Positions 361 through 62,460 of a DNA stretch of 64,000 bases are shown one piece after another. The notes under the pieces were generated by a model, which saw nothing but the letters and a program-made list of their open reading frames with translations, was not told the DNA's origin and searched no databases. Source of the stretch: Stegostoma tigrinum (taxonomy: Eukaryota); assembly GCF_030684315.1 (NCBI RefSeq), contig NC_081356.1, forward strand, positions 33,071,197 through 33,135,196. Direction: 5' to 3'. How positions within the stretch are numbered: position 1 is the first letter of the stretch; every line of letters starts with the position of its first letter. Both the position numbers and the translations under genes were made by a program.

Positions 361-631
361 AATTTGCACACTATTACCATACTGCAGAAACAACGCCATT
401 GACATAAAGAAATAATTCCAAAATTCCTTGTTAGGATTGTCATCTAGAATTTTGAAAGAAGTTGATTTTGAATGCAAAATGTTGAAACAGAGCATTCAGC
501 AGAATGTGTTTATGATTTTAAGCAGTCAAATTTAATGGATGTTTGATCAATTAGATCATTAGATCAAAGCGGGAACTCCATGCTTATAGAAGCATGCCCT
601 GTCAGTCACGTTCAAAATGAATTCAGAAAGT

Positions 632-906
632 CCTTGACCTGTCCGTCTTCCCTGGACTGACCTATCCCCTCCCTACCTCCCCACCTACACTCTCTCCACC
701 TATCTTCTTTACTCTCCATCTTCGGTCCGCCTCCCCCTCTCTCCCTATTTATTCCAGTTCCCTCCCCCCATCCCCCTCTCTGATGAAGGGTCTAGGCCCG
801 AAACGTCAGCTTTTGTGCTCCTGAGATGCTGCTTGGCCTGCTGTGTTCATCCAGCCTCACATTTTATTATTTTGGAATCTCCAGCATCTGCAGTTCCCAT
901 TATCTC
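632..906 (+). mobile_element. Penelope-like element 3' end (pLTR/3'UTR fragment with tail)
   Basis: Near-identical to 61690-61965. Flanked by AGTCCTT at 629-635 and 907-913 (probable TSD, partly microhomology). Confidence 0.9.
780..807 (+). ncRNA. Minimal hammerhead-ribozyme-like core in Penelope 3' end
   Basis: CTGATGA-A-GGGTCTAGGCCC(stem II)-GAAAC-GTC. Matches the CUGANGA/GAAA/UH core with a loopless palindromic helix III, as described for PLE hammerheads. Confidence 0.65.
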
Positions 907-2348: not shown

Positions 2349-5039
2349 GCCAATTTACTTTATTACAACAGTGACACTTAAAGTGCGTTATTGGCTTCAA
2401 AATCCTGTCCCAGCATTAGAAAACTGTGATATAACGTCAAGTTTCAATTTATAGTTTTGCTGGTTGTCATTCCCTTCAAATTCAATGTTCAAGTCTCTGT
2501 TAACTTATTTCTTGTTACGCAATGATTTTCATAGCTACATATAAAAGGGAAGTTAGATTAACACATGAAAAGAAAGGAATGGTAAGATATTTTGATAATG
2601 GTGAGTTGTCATGAGGAATAAGGAGGCTTGCGTGAAGCATAAACACTACCATGGACCTGCTGGGTTGTAGGCCATTTCTGTATTCTAAATGTTACGCATT
2701 TCTCAGTAAAATGAAAACAAACTCTGATCAGCAAACTCTTATGAATTGTAAATAAATTGTTTGCCACATTTTCCACAGAGAGAGATTTCACCTGATAAGC
2801 TTTGTTATACACCCCCACCGAGTTAATGCTAGATTTTATCAGTACCAGGAAAGTAGTTTAGTTAATACATTGCTATTTCATCTCCTTTACTCTGAATTGC
2901 AAACAGAATTTAAAATGAGTACTCAAGATTATTCAGGATTGCAGTAAGCATGGTGATAAAGTAGTTGGCTTCTTTTCATTGCGACTCGCAGGTAGTTTCA
3001 TAGCAACTCTTAAGGTGTTAAAATATACTGTTACTTAACTGTTGGTAAAGCTATCCTTGAACACTTGATAACTTATCTTCAGAGGAAATACTTTAAAAAA
3101 AACAGACATCACAGATTCTGTTCATGCACCAGCTACAGTAGATAAATGACTTAAGCATATATCCATTGTATCATATTTTACTGTTGCAGAAACTCCCTGC
3201 TGAACCATTTAGCAGTATTACATCTCACTATGAGCAGGCAGACTCCAATACTTTCTCATTATTTCACATTTATATTAGATTAAATGTAATAGGCTAGATA
3301 TTATAGAATTTGTGCTGATCTGCAATGCTTCAAACATAGGAATATGAGTAGGCCATTAGCCTTTGGGACCTGTTCTTTCATTCAGTTAGATCACTGATTT
3401 GTATCTTAACTGCATCCTCCAATCTTGTGTCGGTAACCCTTAATTCCTTTGTATAACACAAATGTATCAAATCTGTCAATCACCATTTTGGTAATTTCCA
3501 TTGATTTACCAGCCTTAACAGCTTTTAGGATGCCCACTGCACTGTGTAGATGAATGTTTCCTGATATTCCTTGAACAGCCTGGGTATAATTTTTCAGGTT
3601 CTGCCCTGGTCTCCTAAACACCCAACCTCCTCACACAGATGAGTATTTCTTTATCAACTTGATGAATGTGATGTGACACCCCTCTGTGGCTGTCATTTTG
3701 AGACTAGAACCCAGAACTTCTGGCTCAGGGATTACCATTGCACCCACAAGATCCTAATGAGACAGCATGAGAGTCTTTAACAATGCATCAATATGCATAA
3801 AATATGTACGGAGAGGGTGACACAGTGGTCTTGTCACTCCTGTGGGTCCACAGTTTCAAATCCCACCACAACAGTTGAAAGTTAAATACATTTTAATACT
3901 GGAAATGAGAGATAGTTTTACATATGCCTTACTGAGACTATCATTTGCTTACTTGTGTACTTTCAGAAGGAGCTCTGTCTTTACCTGGTCTAACCTACAT
4001 GTGGCTACAAATACACAACGTGATTAACACTTAACTGCCTCTGAAATGGCCTAGCAGTGCAATCAGTTCAAGGGCAATTAGGTTTGGGCAAATTTGCACT
4101 TTTTAATGCAGGTCTTTCTCCATGTGGCTTGATGTCATTTTTGTTTATAATGCTCCTGTGTAATGCCTTAGAATTTTTTAATACACCAAAAGAGTTAGAT
4201 AAATATTAAGTTTTGTAAAAGAATAACAACAATAACAAATGAATGGGAAACATCTCCCCTCCAAATTACTCAAACATATATTGTTATCTTTATTAATTGT
4301 CTCTGGACAAACTCCTGGAACTCCTGCAACAGGAACAGCCTCACCACATGTAGCATATCGTTTCAAGATGACAGTCCAGTGCCTCCACCTCTCGGACACT
4401 GGGGATGCATACTGGCATTGATAAGTGTACAATAAGACTGGGTTACAAAAGCACTCTTGCCAGCTATTCTGCTCACTTTAGCAGAGAAGAACTACACCCA
4501 TTTGCATATATAAAAGACATTGTTAAGACAAATCAGGAAAAATGATTGTCTGATCCAGAATGCTGCTAATAAACAAAATGTGCAATTATTACTGTCCACA
4601 CAAATGAAGGATTTCTGCTTCAAAGGAACATTTCTATTGAATGAAGAATCTATAGCAGGATCACCAAAATCAGAAAAAATAATCTATTGTGTTACCAAAT
4701 AAATGAAGGCATATGAATAAAGGAGAACAGGGGTTACTACAGCAAGACTAGTTTTATTGTCTCGTCTTTATAACTACTGAGGCCATTAAATTGTATTCTC
4801 TCCTACGTGGGATTGATGTGCAGATTTTACCAGAAATAAATGTTTGCTTAATTTGACACTGGTAACAAAGGTCTTTTCATAGCAGGAACACTGAAAATGA
4901 CTTTTCATCTTAAGTGACCTGGGGTTTTAGTCATGAATATTTTAATTTTCTGGCTGTCACACCAACAAACTAAATAGCTTTTGCCAGAAAGACTGCCATC
5001 TGTGCAACATAGTGCTGCTAACATATCTTTGAGCCCTTT

Positions 5040-11200: not shown

Positions 11201-12668
11201 GGTGAGGAGAACATGATATTGAAGGATTCAACCGACATTTGTTATAACTAACTATTTATATAGAAACATTACATTCTTCAGCCACATAAGTACCAGGACT
11301 AACATTAAGCTATTAGGTTACAAAAGAGCATCATGCCTCAAGTGATCAAAGGTAAAATGGCAATGAGACACATATCCTCAGGTCACATACAGTGATGATA
11401 TCAAAAGCATATCTCTTAAAAGGTGAACTGACGTTAAACATGATGATACTACCCCTCCCTGGGCAAATTCCTATCTCCAAGTATGGGATATGCTCATTCA
11501 CTATCTGTTCCAGCACCCCACACTAGCTGTGTTGGCGTGTGTATGCCGTGTGTATGTGAACTAGCAACTGATGCAGACTGCAGGACTAATCCACCTTGCA
11601 AAGGCTAAAAGTGTACATTTATATATACAGACAACCTCAGGTATCTTAAAATGCCTTGCAACAAACAAACACTCAATGTGGTTGCTGTTGCGACATAGAA
11701 ATTCAGTAACCACGCACAGAATCCCACAAACAACAATGAGACTTGTTTAGAGAGAGATGTTGGTTGAAAGATAACTATTGGTCAGGAAACTAGGGAGAAC
11801 TCTCTGCTCTTGTTTGAACTATTTCATAGGACAATTTACATTGGGCTGAGGGGAAAGATTCAGTTCTAGATCTAGGTATTTCTGACTCCCAACAGTATCA
11901 TACTGAACTGTCAGTCCTATTTGTGAGCCAGATTTTGCTGAGTGATGGGGTTGGTTGATGGCAAACCGTCTACATTTATTGTCATGAGTTCTTCGAAATG
12001 GACCTTAACTTCAGGAGGTCAAATGTGCCTAGATTAGCATAAAAATCCTGAAGTTGGGATCTGTTGCTCAGGGTGAGCATCCTTCAGAACCAATCATTAA
12101 AATTAGCACAAACCTCAACTGCTTGTGCCCTCACAACACTTAGCAATCTTTTAAAAACGTTACTCTTTTATTCAATCAGGAATACCTGGTTTCTAACAAC
12201 ACTTTTAAAATTACTCACATCCAACAAGTCATCGCTGGCTGGACCAGCATTTATTCTATTCTAACTGGCATTGAGAAGGTGGTAGTGAGCCGCTTTCTTG
12301 AACCGCTGCAGTGCATGTGCTGTAGGTACAGCCACAATGCCATTTGGGAGGGAATTCTGGCATTTTGACATGGTACTGAAGGAGTGGAGATATGTTTCCA
12401 AGTCAGGATGGGGAATGTGAAATTACATGTGATTAATAGAATCTAATATCTAACAAACAGAAAATCAAATTCTAAAAAAAAAATCTTACATGAGGCTTGT
12501 TATTAAAGTCTATGTTATGATTATTTGGTTTTTAAAAATTGATTGCGTAAGTTTACTTAAAAATCTTTCATGATATTTCAACTTTTAGCATCACTTCATG
12601 TGTATGCACCAAACTTTAATAATATCCTTGCAGCAAAAACAGAGAGAGAAAAGCGGTTGTGCACTTCT

Positions 12669-12855
12669 GAGATAGTAGGAACTGCAGATGCTGGAGAATC
12701 TGAAATAACAAGGTGTAGAGCTGGATGAACACAGCAGGCCAAGCAGCATCAGAGGAGCAGGAAGGCTGATGTTTCGGGCGTAGACACTTCTGAAGAAGGG
12801 TCTAAGCCCGAAACGTCAGCCTTCCTGCTCCTCAGATGCTTTTTGGCCAGCTGTG
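12669..12855. mobile_element. Miniature palindromic Penelope derivative
   Basis: Minus arm with tail (GAGATAGTAGGAACTGCAGATGCTGGAG) joined at CTTCTGAAGAAG to a plus arm. Hammerhead core at 12790-12817. Degenerate TSD TTGTGCACTTCT / TTATGCATTCCT. Confidence 0.85.
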
Positions 12856-13199
12856 ATTATGCATTCCTGTTCTTTTTTTCCTGCTTGGATATCTGTGAAA
12901 ATCCTTTTTCATGTGATCAGCTGCTTCAATAACGTTAACTTTGAGATCACTCCAGCTTCATGTTAGGAATAGCCAGTAAAGGATCTGTGTATCACTCCAA
13001 TACAAGATACACACCAAAGAGATTGCGAGACCTCAAAAGGCTTTTTCTGTGTGATCAGTAATAAGCACCCTTTCTTCATAACTGACCACAGCCCCTGGGC
13101 TATTGTGTTTAGGTCTGTTGAAGGAAACCTGAACCCATTAATTTCTGGCTCTCAGGTGTGACCACAATTGATACTCAGCGTGCTGTTTACATTTCCAAA

Positions 13200-13670: not shown

Positions 13671-14017
13671 AAGTGATATCCAAGAACTACTCAAATGCAA
13701 TGCTTGTGGAAGAAAGAGCCTGTCTTTCACAGATTGGTCTCTTCAGCCATCCACAAAGTGTGCTTTTATGAAGGCCTCCTCCATCCCCAAGGGATTTGCT
13801 TTGACGCTTTTATATCTTTGAAAGAGGGAAGGATATTACCATGTGAATCCACTGGTGTTTGATGACAGCTAGTCAAAACTATAGTGAGTACTTGTCCACA
13901 GCTTGATTTAAATATCAAAATGATTGTTGGAAGGATCCTTCTCTCTCAAAAGTGCAGTGTGTTGATTCTAGCTGAAGCAGTATGTACTAAAAACAGCAGT
14001 CATAAGATCAGAGATCA

Positions 14018-14517
14018 GAGATGATGGGAACTGCAGAGGCTGGAGAATCCAAGATAACAAAGTGTGAAGCTGGATGAACACAGCAGGCCAAGCAGCATCT
14101 CAGGAGCACAAAAGCTGACGTTTCGGGCCTAGACCCTTCATCAGAGAGGGGGATGGGGAGAGGGTTTTGAAAAAAAAGGGACAGAGGGGGAGGCGGACCA
14201 AAGGTGGATAGTGGAGAAGAAAGGTGGAGAGGAGAGTACAGGTGGGCAGGTAGGGGGGGGATAGATCAGTCCCGCCCCCTTGACCTGTCCGTCCTCCCCG
14301 GACTGACCTATCTCCTCCCTATCTGCCCACCTGTACTCTCCTCTCCACCTATCTTTTCCACTATCCATCTTCGGTCCGCCTCCCCCTCTCTTCCTATTTA
14401 TTTCAGAACCCTCTCCTATTCCCCTCTCTGATGAAGGGTGTAGGCCCGAAACGTCAGCTTTTGTGCTCCTGAGATGCTGCTTGGCGTGCTGCGTTCATCA
14501 GCTTCACACTTTGTTAT
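14018..14517. mobile_element. Palindromic Penelope derivative (two inverted 3' ends)
   Basis: Minus arm 14018-~14272 with tail; plus arm ~14273-14517 without tail. Hammerhead cores at 14117-14144 (-) and 14428-14455 (+). ATAAGATCAGA on both sides. Confidence 0.92.
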
Positions 14518-14526
14518 ATAAGATCA

Positions 14527-14627
14527 GAGATAGTGGGAATTGCAGATCTGGAGAATCCGAGATAACAAAGTGTGGAGCTGGATGAACACAGGAGGCCAAG
14601 CAGCAGTGTTCATCCAGCTCCACACTT
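14527..14627. mobile_element. Second, minimal palindromic Penelope derivative in tandem
   Basis: Tail plus minus arm, then a short inverted GTGTTCATCCAGCTCCACACTT, followed by a third CATAAGATCAGA at 14631-14642. Confidence 0.85.
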
Positions 14628-32760: not shown

Positions 32761-33127
32761 CCTATTTACTAAAACAGGACTATTTAGCCTTGTTGCTTCT
32801 TCCTGATTAACATTTAGTGACAACCTGCGCGGAATAAAAACTTCCTGGACTCAAAACGTTAAGCATGCTTTCTCTCCACAGATGCTGCCGGACCTGCTGA
32901 GTTTTTCCAGAAATTTATTTTTGTTCGATTTCCAGCATCCACTGTTCTTTTGTTTTTGCAATAAGAATGCATTAGCCTTCAGTGTGTTGGTTCCAGCAGG
33001 CAAATGGAATATTACCACTCCGAAAGGAGAGAGCAAAAATTTAGGGTGATTATGGGCGGACTCCTTATGTGAGTGTTCCTGGTAAACTGCTTCACTATCC
33101 TAAATGACATCATATCAATCTTGTTCA

Positions 33128-33325
33128 GAGGTGGTAAGAACTGCCAATGCTGGAGTCTGAGATAACACTGAGTGGAGCTGGAGGAACACAGCAGGCCAGG
33201 CAGCATGAGAGGAGCAGGAAAGCTGAACATTCTGAAGAAGGGTTCTGACCCAAGACGTCAGCTTTCCTGCTCCTCTGATGCTGCCTGGCCTGCTCTGTTC
33301 ATCCAGCTCCACACTGTGCTATGTC
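33128..33325. mobile_element. Miniature palindromic Penelope derivative
   Basis: Tail-bearing minus arm (GAGGTGGTAAGAACTGCCAATGCTGGAG...) followed by a tail-less plus arm starting TTCTGAAGAAGGG. Confidence 0.85.
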
Positions 33326-33539
33326 ACTCCTGTTCTATGATTAACATGGTAGCAGAAATTTTAAAATTTGAGACATTTAAAAAAAGAGATCTGTACATAG
33401 TGGAAACTATGTACAACTGGGACATTTTAAAAAGGGGAATACAGCTTGGTACTTGGGAATAAATTGTCCTTGATTTTCAGAAGAGATAGGGAGCAAACTG
33501 AATAAGAGGAGGGTGGTGAAAGTTGGAGATATTCATCAA

Positions 33540-37053: not shown

Positions 37054-37071
37054 CAGACTCAAATTAAGGAA

Positions 37072-37271
37072 GAGATCATGGGGGGAACTGCAGATGCTGG
37101 AGAATCCAAGATAACAAAGTGCGAAGCTGGATGAACACAGCAGGCCAAGCAGTATCTCAGGAGCACAAACGCTGACGTTTCGGATGAAGGGTCTAGGCCC
37201 GAAATGTCAGCTTTTGTGCTCCTGAGATGCTGCTTGGCCTGCTGTGTTCATCCAGCTTCACACTTTGTCAT
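37072..37271. mobile_element. Miniature palindromic Penelope derivative with 14-bp TSD
   Basis: CTCAAATTAAGGAA at 37058-37071 and 37272-37285. Tail on the left arm only; arms join at TTTCG|GATGAAG. Confidence 0.92.
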
Positions 37272-37343
37272 CTCAAATTAAGGAACACAGGAACGGACAG
37301 ACCATTCAGTCCTCAGCTTACTCAATTATTCAAATATATGATG

Positions 37344-51361: not shown

Positions 51362-51488
51362 TCTCAAAAGGGTCGAGGCCTGAAGCATCAGCTTTTGTGC
51401 TCCTAAGATGCTGCTTGGCCTGCTGTGCTCATCTAGCCCCCGACTTTGTTATCTTGGATTCTCCAGCATCTGCAGTTCCCATTATCTC
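51362..51488 (+). mobile_element. Short Penelope 3' end with tail
   Basis: AAGGGTCGAGGCCTGAAGCATCAGC...CTCCAGCATCTGCAGTTCCCATTATCTC. Confidence 0.85.
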
Positions 51489-51917
51489 TCCCCTCTCAGT
51501 CTTCTCAGGTCTAAAGAAAAAAGAGATTATCTCCCCATTCTCACTTTGTTTCTGGAGGAGGTTTGCTGTACACTAATTGGTTATTGTTTTCTGTATTATA
51601 GTTGAGCCTACATTTCAAAATTAGTTCATTGGTTGCTGTGAGATATCTGATTGTTGTATAGATTATGATATAAAACAAGCCCTTCTTATTTCATTGCACC
51701 CCCAAAGACATTTTGCAAGACAAACATTGCTCATTTTAACATAGCACAAAGGACAATGAAATAAACAAAGTGAAGATGTTAAATGGCAGGAGATTCCATT
51801 ACTGTATGGTTTGTGCCATTGTTGGTTTTCTATTAAAGCAAATTATTTAGCCTGGTGTTCATTTTCTTCAAGCAAAACCTGCATTACAGAGGCAACGTGA
51901 ACAAAAACGATTGTAAA

Positions 51918-52642
51918 TTTCCCAGCAACCACAGGAAGTGCTACAGCTGCCTTATAGCTCCTACCTCACCTCCATTCAAGGCACAAAACCAAACCTTCCA
52001 TATCCGACAGGTGTTCACCTGCACATCTGTCAACTTGGTTTACCGTATCTGCTGCTCCCAATGTGGCCTCCTGTATATCAGTGAGACCAAGCTTGGACTC
52101 GGAGGCCGCTTTGTAGAGCATCTGTGCTCTGTACACAACAAACAACACCACCTTCCAGTCGCCAACCATTTTAACTCCACCTCCAACTTTCTGGGTGGTA
52201 TATCCATCCTGGGCCTCCTCCAGTGTCACAATGACACCACCTGCAAACTGGAGGAGCAACACCTCATATCTCACCTCGGGACCATATACAGCCCAATGGC
52301 CTAAACATGGAGTTCATGTTTTAAAACCTCCCCACCTCCAGCCTCATCCCGTATCCAACCCTCCCTCTCGTCTCAGACAACTTGACCTGACACAACCTGT
52401 CCATCTTCTGTCCCACATATATTGCCCCACCCATCTTACTGCTCCATTCCCACCACTCCCTACCTACACTCATCTATCACCATCCTGCCTACTTTCCCCA
52501 GCCCCACCCCTTCTCTCTATTTATTTTTGAGCTGCCTTCCCCCTCCCCATTTCTGAAGAAGGGCCCCGACTCGAAATGTCAACTTTCTTGTTCCTCTGAT
52601 GCTGCCTGGCCTGTGTGTTCCTCCAGCTCCTCACTGTATCGT
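51918..52642 (+). mobile_element. Older 5'-truncated Penelope-like element (GIY-YIG + 3' end)
   Basis: TFHIRQVFTCTSVNLVYRICCSQCGLLYISETK...HHLPVANHFNS; decayed hammerhead core near 52553-52580. Confidence 0.88.
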
Positions 52643-54485: not shown

Positions 54486-55774
54486 TCACAAATTTGTCTT
54501 CAAAATTTCAATGAGGAGTGTGATGGGGTGAGGGAGGGAGAGAGGCTCAGGTAGAGGGCTTAATACTTTTGAAAACAGGAGCTTGAAAATTTGTGAGGAA
54601 GAATTTTTGCATGGATTGTTGCTTTTTTTTGAATGCAGGCTGTTATTTTCTTGCATGGTGAGGGTTTACAAAATGCTGTTATTTCAAACTTTGGATACTA
54701 AATGGGTTTTTGTTTTCAATTCTATGAGGAAGACCCCCTATCCCCCACAAAAGTTCAGAAACATTTTAAAATCAGTAGATGAAAATGGCATTTCCAAGAA
54801 ATCAATGTGAATTCAGCTATATAACTAGATAAGCTACCTGGGGAGATAACTTGGTAAACACTGAGTAATTAAGCTCTTACAACCCTGAAAGTGAGAGAGG
54901 CCAGAAAGTGGTTCAGATCAGAAGAACATATCCATATTTGACGTGCTGTTACCAGCCTAAAAATAGTCAAAGTAATTGAAAAGAATTCTCTATAGAGTTT
55001 GGTGAGAAATGTCAGTGAATTAGCTTGTGTCTGTGTATCTCTGAAGCAAAGAATCACATTTGTGCATTTGCCAAAGTCACCAAAAAGAAACACTTACAAC
55101 TTCATCAACTGAATAAAAGGTTAAAGAGTTAAGATAGGAATAATGCTTCATTGGGCTTGTGTGACTGTAAAGGACAATGCTGGGGCAAATAATAAAGATT
55201 AAATTTTTTTGATGTTTATGAAAACATTTTTAGAAAGTGTCTCATATATATTTGTAAGTTTATTACACGCAAAATCTGCGCATTTGTTAGAAAGCACATT
55301 GGCAGCCTCATGAATATTTTGATTGACTGACCACGAAAACTAAATTGCAAAAGCAAAACTTCTGGTCTACCAAGCTAGGTTTCACTGTGGAATCTGACAT
55401 CTCCAGTATCACCATCAGCTGGGATCATAACATTTGTTTAGGTGACCTATTTGTGTGCAGGTGGGCTTGGGATTCTGATGACTTTGCAGATTTGAACGGA
55501 TTTGATTCTGGGGAACTTGCAGACTTTAGAATTGGGGTTTGAATGCTGTACACATGTTCTCATATGACCTATTTCATTGAGTATGACAGAGGTTGTGTTT
55601 TCCTATTTTAATACATAGGCCTGAACAATGGGAATGCCTTGAAAAGCTATTAGGAAGCTGGGTTTAGATAACTAGCAGTGACTGCATGAAGCAATGTTGT
55701 GGTTGAATCTCAGCTCACCAAAACAAGAGAGTAATGATTTTTCACTGGTTTTGTGTTTCTTTCTTCCCCAATAG

Positions 55775-56025
55775 GTGTGTTTGCCTTTGGACTGTTTGCA
55801 ACAGATATATTTGCAAACGCAGGCCAAGTGGTCACAGGGAGCCTAACCCCATACTTTATAACCGTTTGCAAACCCAATTACACAGGAACAGATTGCCGTT
55901 CCCACTCCAGATTCATTACTAATGAACACATCTGCACTGGGAACCCTGAAGTCATTGCAAATGCACGAAGATCCTTTCCATCTAAAGATGCATCTTTGAG
56001 CATCTACTGTGCCTTGTATGCTACG
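55775..56025 (+). CDS. PLPPR1: PLPPR1 internal coding exon (251 nt, phase 1/0)
   Basis: Polypyrimidine tract, then AATAG|GT GTG...ACG|GTAAGA. Encodes (G)VFAFGLFATDIFANAGQVVTGSLTPYFITVCKPNYT...ARRSFPSKDASLSIYCALYAT (PAP2-like domain). Confidence 0.96.
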
Positions 56026-56558
56026 GTAAGAGCATGTTTCATCAAACTGGCTGCTCATGAGGCTTAGCGGCTGGGCCTCATACATTTTTACAGAAAATTT
56101 ACTGTCCCACCCAGCGCCTTTGATTCGCTTGTGGCATTCTTCATGTAATGTAATAAACTGAACTTATATGGTGTCCTTAATGCAGTGGATGGTCCCCAAT
56201 CAGTTCACAGTAGTGTTTCAATGGATTTCTATCACTGTTCGTTTACTAATTGCTGGGAACAAAATCCTGGAACTTCCTTCCAGGCAGCACTGTGGTCTCC
56301 TTGACACCCCAAAGGCTGTAGTGATCCAAATGGCAGCTCATCAGCATGTTCAAGGGCAATTAAAGACACATTGTAAATGACGACTTTGTTATTGAAAGCC
56401 ATATTCTACTAACAAATAAGTAATCAGATATAATTTGACACAACTGTGTAAGGAGATGTAGTACAGGTGACAAGAAAAGCTTTGTTCAGAGGCGTACTTT
56501 AAGGATTGTTGTATTGGAATGGGCGACATGGTTGTGAAGTTTAGTAGGAGTAATGGGG

Positions 56559-57100
56559 ATCATCATCATCGGTAGTCCCTCACAGACGAGGAGGAAACTC
56601 TTCCACTCTGGAGGTGAATCTGTAAGTGGCTGTCCAGACCATGCGGCTTCTCCACATTCTGTTTACATTTGGGGCAGCAGGTGGTCATGGAAAGGGGTGG
56701 GCGGGGCATTGCTGTGGCAATGCACTCCTCTTATGCCTAGCTTCTGCTTCTTCCCCTCCGATGGCAAGTCTAGGAGATTCTCTACATCTTCCTGGATGCT
56801 CGTCCTCCACTTAGCTTGGGATCAAATATTAAAATTTGTATCTCTTTGAAGTTCCTTGGAATTTCAACTCAAAAAAAAATCCAAATGGTCTTGGGCCAGT
56901 AAGTTCTAGTTGGCGGTGGAAATGTCACACTTTGCCAACAAGGCCTTAGGGGGATCAGTGAAGCATTTCCTTGTCCACCTGGGCCTCACCTGCCATTTAG
57001 GAGCTTAGGAGTAGAGTACCTGCTTGGGCAGTCTCGTGTCGGTCATGTGGATGACATGCCCAACTCATCACAGCTGATCGAGGGTAGTTGGTGCCTTGGT
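56559..57100 (-). mobile_element. RTE-type LINE 3' fragment
   Basis: Minus-strand LDQL**VGHVIHMTDTRLPKQVLYS (RTE motif LRWxGHVxRMxDxRLPKQxLY), with a (GAT)n tail at ~56559-56570. Confidence 0.78.
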
Positions 57101-57254
57101 GCAATTTAACATAGGTAAGTCTGAGGTTATCAATTTCGGTTGGTGGAATAGAAAAGCAACTTATTACTTAAATAGAAAGAAGCCTCAGTGCAGAGGTATA
57201 CATGTGATTGCAGGAAACTAGTACGCAGGTTTAGCCAGTAATAAAAGAAAGCAA
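57101..57254 (+). mobile_element. Old CR1 fragment, left part (host of the Penelope insertion)
   Basis: QFNIGKSEVINFGWWNRKA resembles the CR1 motif QFNVDKCxVIHFGxKNRKA; continues at 61966. Confidence 0.75.
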
Positions 57255-59905
57255 GATAATAAAATGTGAGGCTGGATGAACACAGCAGGCCAAGCAGCAT
57301 CTCAGGAGCACAAAAGCTGACGTTTCGGGCCTAGACCCTTCATCAGAGAGGGGGATGGGGAGAGGGAACTGGAATAAATAGGGAGAGAGGGGGAGGCGGA
57401 CCAAAGATGGAGAGTAAAGAAGATAGGTGGAGAGAGTATAGGTGGGGAGGTAGGGAGGGGATAGGTCAGTCCAGGGAAGACGGACGGGTCAAGGAGGTGG
57501 GATGAGGTTAGTAGGTAGATGGGAGTGCGGCTTGGGGTGGGAGGAAGGGATGGGTGAGAGGAAGAACCGGTTAGGGAGGCAGAGACAGGTTGGACTGGTT
57601 TTGGGATGCAGTGGGTGGGGGTGAAGAGCTGGGCTGGTTGTGTGGTGCAGTGGGGGGAGGGGACGAACTGGGCTGGTTTAGGGATGCAGTAGGGGAAGGG
57701 GAGATTTTGAAACTGGTGAAGTCCACATTGATACCATTACGCTGCAGGGTTCCCAGGCGGAATATGAGTTGCTGTTCCTGCAACCTTCGGGTGGCATCAT
57801 TGTGGCAGTGCAGGAGGCCCATGATGGACATGTCATCTAGAGAATGGGAGGGGGAGTGGAAATGGTTTGCGACTGGGAGGTGCAGTTGTTTGTTGCGAAC
57901 TGAGCGGAGGTGTTCTGCAAAGCGGTCCCCAAGCCTCCGCTTGGTTTCCCCAATGTAGAGGAAGCTGCACCGGGTACAGTGGATGCAGTATAACACATTG
58001 GCAGATGTGCAGGTGAACCTCTGCTTAATGTGGAATGTCATCTTGGGGCCTGGGATAGGGGTGAGGGAGGAGGTGTGGGGGCAAGTGTAGCATTTCCTGC
58101 GGTTGCAGGGGAAGGTTCCAGGTGTGGTGGGGTTGGAGGGCAGTGTGGAGCGATCAAGGGAGTCACGGAGAGAGTGGTCTCTCCGGAAAGCAGACAGGGG
58201 TGGGGATGGAAAAATGTCTTGGGTGGTGGGGTCGGATTGTAAATGGCGGAAGTGTCGGAGGATGATGCGTTGTATCCGGAGGTTGGTAGGGTGGTGTGTG
58301 AGAACGAGGGGGATCCTCTTAGGGCGGTTGTGGGGGGGGGGCGGGGTGTGAGGGATGTGTTGCGGGAAATACGGGAGACGCGGTCAAGGGCGTTCTCGAT
58401 CACTGTGGGGGGAAAGTTGCGGTCCTTAAAGAACTTGGACATCTGGGATGTGCGGGAGTGGAATGTCTTATCGTGGGAGCAGATGCGGCGGAGGCGGAGG
58501 AATTGGGAATAGGGGATGGAATTTTTGCAGGAGGGTGGGTGGGAGGAGGTGTATTCTAGGTAGCTGTGGGAGTCGGTGGGCTTGAAATGGACATCAGTTA
58601 CAAGCTGGTTGCCTGAGATGGAGACTGAGAGGTCCAGGAAGGTGAGGGATGTGCTGGAGATGGCCCAGGTGAACTGAAGGTTGGGGTGGAAGGTGTTGGT
58701 GAAGTGGATGAACTGTTCGAGCTCCTCTGGGGAGCAAGAGGCGGCGCCGATACAGTCATCAATGTACCGGAGGAAGAGGTGGGGTTTGGGGCCTGTGTAG
58801 GTGCGAAAGTGGGACTGTTCCACGTAGCCTACAAAGAGGCAGGCATAGCTGGGGCCCATGCGGGTGCCCATGGCCACCCCCTTAGTCTGTAGGAAGTGGG
58901 AGGAGTCAAAAGAGAAGTTGTTGAGAGTGAGGACGAGTTCAGCTAGGCGGATGAGAGTGTCGGTGGAGGGGGACTGGTCGGGCCTGCGGGACAGGAAGAA
59001 GCGGAGGGCCTTGAGGCCATCTCCATGCGCAATGCAGGTGTACAGGGACTGGATGTCCATGGTGAATATGAGGTGTTGGGGGCCAGGGAATTGGAAGTCC
59101 TGGAGGAGGCGGAGGGCGTGGGTGGTGTCACGGACGTAGGTGGGGAGTTCCTGGACCAAAGGGGAGAAAATGGAGTTCAGATAGGTGGAGATGAGTTCGG
59201 TGGGGCAGGAGCGGGCTGAGACGATGGGTCGACCAGGGCAGGCAGGTTTGTGGATTTTGGGAAGGAGATAGAAACGGGCCGTGCGGGGTTGGGGAACAAT
59301 GAGGTTGGAGGCTGTGGGTGGGAGGTCCCCTGAGGTGATGAGGTCGTGAATGGTGTTGGAGATGATGGTTTGGTGCTCGGGTGTGGGGTCATGATCGAGG
59401 GGGCGGTAGGAGGTGGTGTCGGAGAGTTGGCGTCTGGCCTCGGCGATGTAGAGGTCAGTGCGCCATACTACCACTGCGCCACCCTTGTCTGCGGGTTTGA
59501 TGGTGAGGTTGGGGTTGGAGCGGAGGGAGCGGAGGGCTGCCCGTTCTGCGGGGGAGAGGTTGGAGTGGGTGAGAGGGGTGGAGAGGTTGAGGCGGTTAAT
59601 GTCTCGACGGCAGTTAGGGATGAAGAGTTCGAGGGAGGGTAGGAGGCCTGGGGGTGGTGTCCAGGAGGAGAACTTGTGTTGGAAGCGGGTGAAGGGGTCA
59701 GTGGAAGGAGGGTTAGGTTCCCGGTTGAAGAAGTAGGCATGGAGGCGAAGACGGCGGAAAAACTGCTCTATGTCCAACCGTGACTGGTATTCGTTGATGT
59801 GTGGTTGTAGGGCGACAAAGGTGAGCCCCTTGCTAAGGACTGACCGTTCGTCCTCAGTCAGTGGGAGGTCTGGGGGGATGGTGAAGATGCGGCAGGGCTC
59901 AGTGT
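57255..59905 (-). mobile_element. Penelope-like element (Neptune-like), left inverted arm; 5'-truncated, one frameshift
   Basis: RT motifs (KPADKGGAVVV, GVAMGTRMGPSYA, FLRYIDD) in ORF 58038-59936. The GIY-YIG (ORF 57571-58041) is in another frame because the G run at ~58332-58341 has 10 G versus 8 in the other arm. Hammerhead core at 57319-57346. Confidence 0.97.
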
Positions 59906-61613
59906 GGCTCGTTTCTATCTCCTTCCCAAAATCCACAAACCTGCCTGCCCTGGTCGACCCATTGTCTCAGCCTGCTCCTGCCCCACCGAACTCATCTCCA
60001 CCTATCTGGACTCCATTTTCTCCCCTTTGGTCCAGGAACTCCCCACCTACGTCCGTGACACCACCCATGCCCTCCGCCTCCTCCAGGACTTCCAATTCCC
60101 TGGCCCCCAACACCTCATATTCACCATGGGCGTCCAGTCCCTGTACACCTGCATTCCGCATGGAGATGGCCTCAAGGCCCTCCGCTTCTTCCTGTCCCGC
60201 AGGCCCGACCAGTCCCCCTCCACCGACACTCTCATCCGCCTAGCTGAACTCGTCCTCACACTCAACAACTTCTCTTTTGACTCCTCCCACTTCCTACAGA
60301 CTAAGGGTGTGGCCATGGGCACCCGCATGGGCCCCAGCTATGCCTGCCTCTTTGTAGGCTACGTGGAACAGTCCCTCTTCCGCACCTACACAGGCCCCAA
60401 ACCCCACCTCTTCCTCCGGTACATTGATGACTGTATCGGCGCCGCCTCTTGCTCCCCAGAGGAGCTCGAACAGTTCATCCACCTCACCAACACCTTCCAC
60501 CCCAACCTTCAGTTCACCTGGGCCATCTCCAGCACATCCCTCACCTTCCTGGACCTCTCAGTCTCCATCTCAGGCAACCAGCTTGTAACTGATGTCCATT
60601 TCAAGCCCACCGACTCCCACAGCTACCTAGAATACACCTCCTCCCACCCACCCTCCTGCAAAAATTCCATCCCCTATTCCCAATTCCTCCGCCTCCGCCG
60701 CATCTGCTCCCACGATAAGACATTCCACTCCCGCACATCCCAGATGTCCAAGTTCTTTGAGGACCGCAACTTTCCCCCCACAGTGATCGAGAACGCCCTT
60801 GACCGCGTCTCCCGTATTTCCTACAACACATCCCTCACACCCCGCCCCCCCCACAACCGCCCTAAGAGGATCCCCCTCGTTCTCACACACTACCCTACCA
60901 ACCTCCGGATACAACGCATCATCCTCCGACACTTCCGCCATTTACAATCCGACCCCACCACCCAAGACATTTTTCCATCCCCACCCCTGTCTGCTTTCCG
61001 GAGAGACCACTCTCTCCGTGACTCCCTTGATCGCTCCACACTGCCCTCCAACCCCACCACACCTGGAACCTTCCCCTGCAACCGCAGGAAATGCTACACT
61101 TGCCCCCACACCTCCTCCCTCACCCCTATCCCAGGCCCCAAGATGACATTCCACATTAAGCAGAGGTTCACCTGCACATCTGTCAATGTGGTATACTGCA
61201 TCCACTGTACCCGGTGCAGCTTCCTCTACATTGGGGAAACCAAGCAGAGGCTTGGGGACCGCTTTGCAGAACACCTCCGCTCAGTTCGCAACAAACAACT
61301 GCACCTCCCAGTCGCAAACCATTTCCACTCCCCCTCCCATTCTTTAGATGACATGTCCATCATGGGCCTCCTGCACTGCCACAATGATGCCACCCGAAGG
61401 TTGCAGGAACAGCAACTCATATTCCGCCTGGGAACCCTGCAGCGTAATGGTATCAATGTGGACTTCACCAGTTTCAAAATCTCCCCTTCCTCTACTGCAT
61501 CCCTAAACCAGCCCAGTTCATCCCCTCCCCCCACTGCACCACACAACCAGCCCAGCTCTTCCCCCCCACCCACTGCATCCCAAAACCAGTCCAACCTGTC
61601 TCTGCCTCCCTAA
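59904..61613 (+). pseudogene. Open but N-terminally truncated Penelope RT + GIY-YIG ORF (569 codons)
   Basis: FYLLPKIHK..PGRPIVS, YIDD, thumb region KNSIPYSQFLRLRRICS, CxxxxCxxC linker (PCNRRKCYTC) and VVYCIHCTRC..LYIGETK. The start coincides with the inversion junction and there is no native ATG. Confidence 0.9.
61485..61600 (+). repeat. In-frame 39-bp tandem repeat (3 units) at the Penelope ORF C-terminus
   Basis: TASLNQPSSSPPP / TAPHNQPSSSPPP / TASQNQS. The copy at 1842-2273 has only two units. Confidence 0.85.
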
Positions 61614-61837
61614 CCTGTTCTTCCTCTCACCCATCCCTTCCTCCCACCCCAAGCCGCACCCCCATCTACCTACTAACCTCATCCCACCTCCTTGACCCGT
61701 CCGTCTTCCCTGGACTGACCTATCCCCTCCCTACCTCCCCACCTATACTCTCTCCACCTATCTTCTTTACTCTCCATCTTTGGTCCGCCTCCCCCTCTCT
61801 CCCTATTTATTCCAGTTCCCTCTCCCCATCCCCCTCT

Positions 61838-61865
61838 CTGATGAAGGGTCTCGGCCCGAAACGTC
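61838..61865 (+). ncRNA. Minimal hammerhead-ribozyme-like core
   Basis: CTGATGA-A-GGGTCTCGGCCC-GAAAC-GTC. Confidence 0.65.
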
Positions 61866-61965
61866 AGCTTTTGTGGTCCTGAGATGCTGCTTGGCCTGCT
61901 GTGTTCATCCAGCCTCACATTTTAATATCTTGGAATTCTCCAGCATCTGCAGTTCCCATTACCTC

Positions 61966-62460
61966 TAATAAAAGAAAGCAAATGGAATTTGAGCACATAT
62001 TGCTAAAAAAAAATATAAAGCAGAGAGCGTTTTTGCAACTGTACAAGGCATTAATGAGACTGCATCTACAATCTTGTATACTGTTTTAGCGTCCTTGAGG
62101 AGGAATGTAATTGCTTTGGAAGCAGTTCAGAGAATATTCACTTTTGGAGTTTGAGAATGAGGGGCAATCTGTTTGACAAATAAGATGCTAAAGCGGATTG
62201 ACAAAGTAGACATAGAAAGAGGTTTCCTCGGGTAGGGTAATCAAGAATGAGAGCTCATGGTTTTTAGGATAAGACGGGTAGCAGATTTAAAACAGATGAG
62301 GAAAAATTCTCTCAAACAAATCCTGAATCTGTGGAATTCTTTCCTCACCCTAAGTGCAGTGGATGCTGGTACATTAACTGGATGTTTCAGTTAGTAATTG
62401 GTTGAGGGATTCTGGACTTGAGTCTGAGAGGAGATCAGTCATGATCTTATCAAATGAATG
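61966..62460 (+). mobile_element. Old CR1 fragment, right part
   Basis: AFLQLYKALMRLHLQSC resembles CR1 LLQLYRALVRPHLEYC; decayed 3' end follows. Confidence 0.78.

What the first reader, a model, noticed from the sequence alone, without database searches (positions are those of the whole stretch)
57239..61981. 4.7-kb head-to-head Penelope insertion made in one event, both 3' ends pointing outward
Seen: two 5'-truncated copies (2.65 kb minus, 2.06 kb plus) are joined at their 5' ends near 59906-59910 and bounded by one 13-16 bp duplication (TAATAAAAGAAAGCAA) that splits an old CR1. The arms overlap in content over ~2 kb, unlike L1 twin-priming inversions, whose parts do not overlap. Only the right arm has the ~33-nt tail. 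Established: Penelope-like elements often carry an inverted partial copy and a 30-40 nt tail. Inference: both nicked target strands primed DNA synthesis from the element 3' region, at two different start points.
Basis: partly seen in the sequence, partly recalled or inferred. Interest (0 to 1): 0.7.

Follow-up and report, generated by a model that had tools for sequence, protein, structure and literature searches.

The report
Two-armed Penelope-like insertion, routine form
Two shortened copies of a Penelope-like jumping gene sit back to back inside one duplicated target site; this is the usual and already described way this family lands in this genome, and it likely arises when both cut DNA ends start copying the same source RNA at two fixed points about 36 letters apart.

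Summary
Two 5'-truncated arms (57255-59909 minus, 59906-61965 plus; 98.5% alike over 2,029 nt) lie inside one exact 16-bp duplication, and only the right arm has the 33-36-nt tail. A related species has the empty site with the 16-mer once. The insertion is not special: 61 of 114 sampled family loci in this genome look the same. Among 90 head-to-head units with a duplication, exactly one arm always carried the tail (83 short+tail, 7 tail+internally ended, 0 short/short or tail/tail). Arms are each other's closest relatives (14 of 16 pairs), most clearly in young insertions, so both likely came from one source; later gene conversion is not excluded. Fold-back of one cDNA cannot build this copy. 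Best model (inferred): both nicked strands prime at the two known start sites and the cDNAs are joined by microhomology. The layout is published for Penelope-like elements, two start sites and both-strand extension were shown in vitro, and this scan found the same layout many times on other DNA. The element is Neptune/Nematis-type. Score low.

The parts
57239..57254 (+). Left copy of the 16-bp target-site duplication; last 3 nt also match the element (likely priming microhomology)
   Evidence: present once in the related species
57255..59909 (-). Left arm: 5'-truncated Penelope-like element ending at the inner ('short') start site, no tail; RT (DKG motif, YIDD), GIY-YIG, frameshift in a G-run near 58331-58340
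57322..57346 (-). Minimal hammerhead-like core (CUGAUGA...GAAAC) of the left pLTR
   Evidence: motif match; no Rfam hit; activity untested
57591..57702 (-). 39-bp x 2.9 tandem repeat at the end of the ORF / 3' region
59281..59905 (-). About 625 nt present only in the left arm (unpaired spacer of the palindrome)
59906..59910 (.). Head-to-head junction of the two 5' ends; 3-nt microhomology plus one mismatch; no second copy among 40 scored of 73 candidates
59906..61965 (+). Right arm: 5'-truncated element, frame open 59910-61610 (RT core, CX4CxxC linker, GIY-YIG), ending at the outer start site
61482..61593 (+). 39-bp x 2.9 tandem repeat of the right arm
61838..61862 (+). Minimal hammerhead-like core of the right pLTR
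   Evidence: no Rfam hit
61930..61965 (+). 33-36-nt tail, on this arm only
   Evidence: distance between the two end sites, median 37.5 nt over 69 measurable loci
61966..61981 (+). Right copy of the target-site duplication
57100..57238 (+). Left part of the old non-LTR (CR1-like, name recalled) remnant that was split
   Evidence: collinear with the right flank in 5 of 9 other copies
61982..62260 (+). Right part of the same old remnant

Best explanation
This is one dead insertion of a Neptune-type Penelope-like retrotransposon, made of two 5'-truncated arms inside a single 16-bp duplication, and it was likely formed when both cut ends of the target each primed a DNA copy of the same source transcript. 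Shown: one event, one duplication, the empty site in a related species, a tail on exactly one arm, arms more alike than any other copies. Inferred steps: (1) the GIY-YIG endonuclease, probably as a dimer, nicks both strands about 13-16 nt apart and leaves two 3' overhangs; (2) one overhang primes reverse transcription at the outer start site (giving the tail) and the other about 36 nt further in, often helped by 1-3 nt of pairing (here CAA); (3) both cDNAs run toward the element's 5' end and stop early (2.66 and 2.06 kb); (4) their 3' ends are joined by a 3-nt microhomology, so each cDNA can serve as template for the other's second strand. One RNA read twice with strand displacement (about 0.4) is favoured over two RNAs from the same source copy (about 0.3), because each start site is used exactly once.
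For: Single exact duplication. Empty site in a related species. One-tail rule: 79 of 90 head-to-head units in 114 loci plus the window had a duplication, 75 short+tail and 4 tail+internally ended; 11 more in 20 further loci, 8 and 3; none short/short or tail/tail. Duplication 13-16 bp in 63 of 75. Microhomology above a two-sided blunt-join null at both ends: short end mean 1.55 vs 0.79 (60 templated of 71 scored), tail end 1.84 vs 0.70 (64 of 74); no null run of 2,000 reached either value. Either arm can be the longer: short-ended 31, tail-ended 14, within 20 nt 11 of 56. Same source: arms differ at 66 of 1,013 family-polymorphic sites where 366 are expected (50 pairs; this locus 2 of 36 vs 12.1). 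Arms are sisters in 14 of 16 pairs in a 107-sequence tree, this pair at 0.986. In the youngest third, by an age gauge outside the paired region, discordance is 7 vs 72.8 expected; arm-only variants rise with age (rho 0.67) while shared rare variants do not (rho 0.05) (31 loci). In vitro a Poseidon protein cuts and extends both strands, starts at two sites that delimit the tail, and is predicted to be a dimer (PMC11167929).
Against: Many ends show no microhomology (18 of 60 short ends, 14 of 64 tail ends), and the in-vitro paper says the start site is not homologous to the cut DNA and saw no strand difference. 11 of 56 simple units are near-perfect palindromes vs 1.9 expected, which also fits a hairpin route. 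Signs of gene conversion between arms: this locus's rare shared variants cluster in the 3' half of the overlap and were not found together in 40 scored of 487 candidates or 20 fetched copies; shared private variants are not richer in synonymous changes than arm-private ones (p 0.13); duplications differ by 2.25% vs 1.48% for arms (inflated by a mismatch-tolerant finder). 4 of 50 pairs are at least half as discordant as random copies, and L056 fully so. One duplication-less short/short unit and one tail/tail unit occur. About a quarter of long copies are single arms with their own duplication (13 of 39), so the second priming is optional.
Confidence: 0.72

Rival explanations
1. Fold-back or self-priming: one cDNA (or a copy of an antisense transcript, as proposed by Arkhipova et al. 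2013) turns back on itself and copies the element a second time; the hairpin is then resolved to leave the tail on one side.
For: Published interpretation of palindromes at the inverted junction (PMC3846280 section 11). It explains same-source arms at once. Near-perfect palindromes are in excess: 11 of 56 vs 1.9 expected, and 5 of 42 vs 1.2 among longer arms.
Against: A cDNA folding on itself makes the second arm a subset of the first. Here the longer arm lacks the tail and the shorter arm lacks 625 nt, so neither contains the other; this is so in 31 of 56 simple units. Microhomology with the target at both outer ends. A version that uses a separate antisense RNA is not excluded by sequence.
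Confidence: 0.13
2. Two unrelated family RNAs primed the two ends, and the arms became alike later by gene conversion within the inverted repeat.
For: Clustered private variants shared by this locus's arms. Shared private variants lie slightly farther from arm differences than chance (median test p 0.015, mean test p 0.15). L056 arms are as discordant as random copies (7 vs 7.2).
Against: The youngest insertions are the most concordant, and shared rare variants do not accumulate with age. With independent RNAs the strict one-tail rule would need a separate cause.
Confidence: 0.09
3. The palindrome was copied whole from an existing head-to-head master element.
For: It would explain why the arms differ at a few family-polymorphic sites (2-3 here).
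Against: The centre junction has no second copy among 40 scored of 73 candidates. Junction positions vary widely across 56 simple units.
Confidence: 0.03
4. Assembly fold-back artefact, or two independent insertions at one spot.
For: Long inverted repeats are known assembly traps (PMC8557442 passage). The centre junction was not tested with reads. The contigs over the outer junctions reach only 19 and 23 letters into the element, short of the tool's 31-letter bridging rule, and may come from the assembled sample.
Against: Arms differ at 29 sites plus an indel and are unequal in length and ends. There is one duplication only, an empty site exists in a related species, and the same layout with its own duplication recurs at 82 other sites.
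Confidence: 0.02

Closest known systems
Insertion unit of endonuclease-bearing Penelope-like elements: inverted 5'-truncated copy, 30-40-bp tail at one end, TSD (Adineta vaga Pen2a_Av, PMC3846280; general scheme in PMC8557442 Fig. 2)
   Same: Head-to-head inverted copy, tail on one end only, whole unit inside one duplication, RT plus C-terminal GIY-YIG, hammerhead-like motif in the terminal repeat.
   Different: Here both arms are truncated and the inverted arm reaches 2-2.6 kb into the ORF rather than being a short pLTR; the duplication is 13-16 bp against 9-10 bp in the rotifer examples. The passages read call the tail optional or often at one end; they give no count of a strict one-tail rule.
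Poseidon of Anolis carolinensis in vitro (PMC11167929)
   Same: Two reverse-transcription start sites that delimit the tail; both target strands cut and extended; predicted dimer; AT-rich targets.
   Different: Different clade (this element has the CX2-5CxxC linker that Penelope/Poseidon lacks). In the parts read, the paper does not link the two start sites to the two strands of one insertion and reports no homology to the cut DNA, whereas a weak 1-3-nt excess is seen here.
L1 twin priming with internal duplication (bioRxiv 10.1101/2024.08.27.596794, passages)
   Same: Both nicks prime on one RNA; the cDNAs are joined by microcomplementarity; overlap arises when the 3'-primed cDNA runs past the internal primer site (17% of inversions).
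   Different: L1 primes on poly(A) and at a random internal site, with a median overlap of 22 bp. Here the second site is fixed about 36 nt from the first, so almost all of the shorter arm overlaps (2 kb). The endonuclease and RT clade also differ.

Membership tests
EN+ Penelope-like element | Single ORF with RT and C-terminal GIY-YIG endonuclease | tested here: met
   A full-length sister copy (L014) has a 1,085-codon frame with RVT_1 (E 1.8e-5) and GIY-YIG (E 0.0019); the right arm has GIY-YIG at E 1.4e-4; all are below Pfam's curated cut-offs.
EN+ Penelope-like element | DKG motif before the RT core; two cysteines between GIY and YIG (CCHH motif) | tested here: met
   DKG in the left arm; CIHCTRC just before YIGET; definitions from PMC8557442 passages. 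The two histidines were not assigned by alignment.
EN+ Penelope-like element | Pseudo-LTR from partial tandem, inverted copy, 30-40-bp tail | tested here: met
   Partial tandems in L014, L022, L026, L047 and others; inverted arms and tail throughout.
EN+ Penelope-like element | Hammerhead ribozyme in the pLTR | tested here: inconclusive
   The core motif is present in both arms, but Rfam gave no hit and the fold is not better than shuffles (z -0.47). Minimal PLE hammerheads are described as such (PMC4209133 passages). Cleavage is untestable here.
EN+ Penelope-like element | RT phylogeny within the PLE clade | not tested
   No named reference PLE proteins were fetched; the PDB sequence search found nothing.
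Penelope/Poseidon clade (strict sense) | Absence of the CX2-5CxxC linker between RT and EN | tested here: not met
   CNRRKCYTC is present upstream of the GIY-YIG core (definition).
Neptune/Nematis clades | CX2-5CxxC linker with C-terminal EN | tested here: met
   Neptune and Nematis were not separated by a tree; Neptune is preferred from recall of its vertebrate range.
L1-type twin priming | One primer on a 3' poly(A), the other at a variable internal site | tested here: not met
   No poly(A); both ends fall in two narrow windows (reference positions 3597-3611 and 3637-3647). It works like twin priming but is not an L1 inversion.
L1-type twin priming | Both cDNAs from one RNA molecule | tested here: inconclusive
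   A same source is supported; one molecule versus two from one locus, and later conversion, cannot be separated by sequence.
CR1 (target remnant) | APE endonuclease plus CR1-clade RT | tested here: inconclusive
   The flanks are one old high-copy repeat; Pfam gave only a weak Exo_endo_phos in one neighbouring frame. The name rests on a recalled C-terminal motif.

The most novel reading that the evidence does not exclude
Two-ended priming is the normal integration route of Neptune-type elements. A dimer holds one RNA, assigns its two start sites one to each cut strand without exception, copies kilobases of that RNA twice by strand displacement, and solves second-strand synthesis by annealing the two cDNAs. 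The long-unexplained inverted repeat plus one-sided tail of Penelope-like elements would then be the direct footprint of this reaction, not of antisense self-priming.
Probability: 0.4. Interest if true: 0.55.

Novelty: new member of a known kind. Interest (0 to 1): 0.27.

Why it matters
The locus itself matters little: it is one dead copy among many. The family-wide counts do sharpen an open question, since the PLE literature read here calls the origin of the inverted repeat and tail unresolved and offers antisense self-priming. The counts (exactly one tail in 90 of 90 duplicated head-to-head units, same-source arms, either arm longer, about 14-16-bp stagger) make specific predictions for the existing in-vitro system. 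Practically, such kilobase palindromes in this genome are real, not assembly errors. I found no paper stating two-ended priming for PLEs in three searches (open-access library only), but this scan's earlier notes reached the same reading many times.

Tried and rejected
Rfam scan of 57000-62200: no match. RNA fold of the pLTR/tail: not above shuffles. PDB sequence search: none. Phage search with the right flank was mis-aimed and empty. A search for inverted tail remnants at the 5' junction of 28 single-arm copies with a duplication showed none by eye, so single arms are not hidden two-armed units; one tail-only inverted arm exists (L095). Test of whether the inverted arm resembles the distal tandem copy more than the adjacent one: 9 loci, 0-6 informative sites each, mixed, inconclusive. 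Search for sibling copies carrying this locus's rare alleles: none. The first microhomology null was one-sided and used a faulty continuation; it was replaced. The tree step failed on a duplicate name and was redone. Arm lengths are not correlated among long arms (rho 0.20, p 0.21, 42 units). The centre junction was not tested with reads. The original L1 twin-priming paper was not held. Dropped rows: L063 (near-duplicate of L062) in the variant analyses; pieces under 90% (88%) identity and chains under 70 nt; chains at locus edges; pairs with under 400 nt overlap, loci with under 450 nt of spacer (31 of 50 kept). L001-L010 and L145-L154 were not part of the architecture counts.
Full report
1. 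Observation. The window holds an inverted repeat with arms 57252-59280 and 59906-61932, 98.47% identical over 2,029 nt. The 16-mer TAATAAAAGAAAGCAA occurs only at 57239 and 61966. Between the two copies lie 4,711 nt: a minus-strand arm of 2,655 nt and a plus-strand arm of about 2,060 nt, joined at their 5' ends. The arms differ by 29 substitutions and one 2-nt indel, which frameshifts the left arm. The right arm runs 33-36 nt further at its 3' end. At the centre, GGC fits both templates, followed by one base that fits only the left template.

2. One event, real DNA. The flanks are collinear in 5 of 9 other copies of an old repeat. In a related species (coded organism A, about 8-10% different in the flanks), contigs of 255 and 295 nt cover the left flank up to 57254. 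Contigs of the same length, depth and strand cover the right flank from 61966, sharing exactly 16 letters. That is the empty site with the target once. Contigs from the window's own species match both outer junctions with no differences, but reach only 19 and 23 letters into the element, short of the tool's bridging rule, and may be from the assembled sample. The centre was not tested with reads. Unequal, diverged arms and the recurrence below make an assembly fold-back very unlikely.

3. What the element is. A full-length sister copy (L014) has a 1,085-codon frame with weak RVT_1 and GIY-YIG matches. [quoted passage not shown] By the definitions in PMC8557442 (passages) the linker places it with Neptune/Nematis, not Penelope/Poseidon in the strict sense; no tree was built against named references. 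A minimal hammerhead core lies in each terminal region (no Rfam hit). Both arms lack the 5' part of the ORF, so the copy is dead. The genome is 3.2 Gb, and searches drew 594-2,382 candidates each, lower bounds.

4. How common. I fetched 114 loci from three searches and 20 more. At the searched position, 61 of 114 were head-to-head units with one short end, one tail end and one duplication (17 of 39, 26 of 39, 18 of 36). This over-counts two-armed units, because each offers two arms to a search. One search found 90 head-to-head units (window included): 79 with a duplication (75 short+tail, 4 tail+internally ended) and 11 without (5 short+tail, 1 short/short, 1 tail/tail, 4 with an internal end). 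One search added 11 with a duplication (8 and 3) and 2 without. So in 90 of 90 duplicated units exactly one arm has the tail. Duplications are 13-16 bp in 63 of 75. Single arms with their own duplication also occur and end at either site (19 short, 9 tail).

5. Mechanistic tests. (a) Ends: microhomology with the target averages 1.55 nt at the short end and 1.84 nt at the tail end, against 0.79 and 0.70 for blunt joining; many ends have none. (b) Arm length: of 56 simple units the short-ended arm is longer in 31, the tail arm in 14, and 11 are within 20 nt (1.9 expected) (31 vs 14, p 0.016). A cDNA that folds back on itself can only make a subset of itself, so the 31 cases, this locus among them, need two separately primed copies or an extra template. 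(c) Source: at family-polymorphic sites the two arms disagree 66 times where random copies would disagree 366 times (50 pairs; this locus 2 vs 12.1). They are sisters in 14 of 16 pairs. Using rare variants in the unpaired spacer as a clock, the youngest third disagree 7 times vs 72.8 expected; arm-only variants grow with age and shared rare variants do not (31 loci). The arms therefore start alike and drift apart. (d) Against a clean reading: this locus's rare shared variants cluster in the 3' half and have no sibling among the copies examined. Duplications look more diverged than arms (2.25% vs 1.48%, an inflated estimate), and 4 of 50 pairs are notably discordant. Some gene conversion, or an occasional second template, is likely. 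(e) The centre junction is unique to this locus among 40 scored of 73 candidates.

6. Mechanism. Inferred: a staggered double nick with 3' overhangs, priming of each overhang at one of two start sites about 36 nt apart, two truncated cDNAs, joining by microhomology, and mutual second-strand synthesis. I put two-ended priming at 0.72, split roughly 0.4 for one RNA and 0.3 for two RNAs of one source. The one-tail rule favours one RNA, since each site is used once. The excess of longer short-ended arms fits a leading enzyme at the inner site and a trailing one that must displace it.

7. Known work, and what I saw of it. PMC3846280 (passages and Discussion): inverted pLTR, 31-bp tail at one end, 9-10-bp duplication, self-priming on an antisense template proposed. 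PMC8557442 (passages): inverted 5'-truncated copy 'often' present, 30-40-bp tail, mechanism open. PMC11167929 (parts 1-2 of 4, that is the main text and start of the methods): both strands cut and extended, two start sites equal to the tail ends, predicted dimer. PMC4209133 (passages): minimal hammerheads in PLEs. bioRxiv 10.1101/2024.08.27.596794 (passages): L1 twin priming with internal duplication in 17%, median 22 bp. bioRxiv 10.1101/2024.12.14.628481 and 10.64898/2026.07.22.740005 (passages) added nothing decisive. Searches found no paper stating two-ended priming for PLEs; subscription papers are mostly not in the library. This scan's earlier notes report the same layout and the same reading in at least seven windows of other genomes and many pieces of this one; they are not independent evidence.

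8. Verdict. Real, single-event, ordinary for its family, architecture already described. The added value is a quantified one-tail rule and a same-source test on long arms. Interest 0.27.

Noticed in passing
window 14002-14531 and 37058-37285: Two small head-to-head units of an older (87-91% alike) subfamily, each inside an exact 14-bp duplication.
   Followed up: partly
window 12666-12863, 33125-33326: More decayed mini-palindromes of the same terminal region; no duplication found.
   Followed up: partly
window 631-906, 1517-2351, 51368-51489, 51918-52361: Single-arm fragments of the same or older subfamilies, no duplication detected in the three tested.
   Followed up: partly
window 55738-56067 (+): Open frame with a weak PAP2 match (E 0.00083); looks like an exon of a phospholipid-phosphatase-related gene (name recalled), so the insertion may be intronic.
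   Followed up: partly
L056 1500-3783: Short+tail unit with a 13-bp duplication whose arms disagree at 7 family-polymorphic sites (7.2 expected for random copies): a candidate for two different templates.
   Followed up: partly
L014 3750-3846, L019 9487-9583, L057 1374-1467, L109 1107-1199, L124 2425-2526 and others: Many mini copies begin at reference positions 3512-3528, right at the hammerhead core, suggesting a preferred stop or RNA 5' end there.
   Followed up: no
L021 3859-4076; L013 9239-9413: Mini head-to-head units nested in, or abutting, a long arm of the same family.
   Followed up: no
L061-L063 (G000:C53) and L075/L076 (G000:C5): Copies with identical coordinates in the element at nearby sites, probably segmental duplicates rather than separate insertions.
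   Followed up: no
L095 4835-4964: A 91-nt short-ended arm joined to an inverted piece of about 38 nt that is the tail alone, inside a 12-bp duplication.
   Followed up: no
family alignment, 107 arms: Haplotypes look mosaic across copies, pointing to recombination, template switching or ectopic conversion in this family.
   Followed up: no
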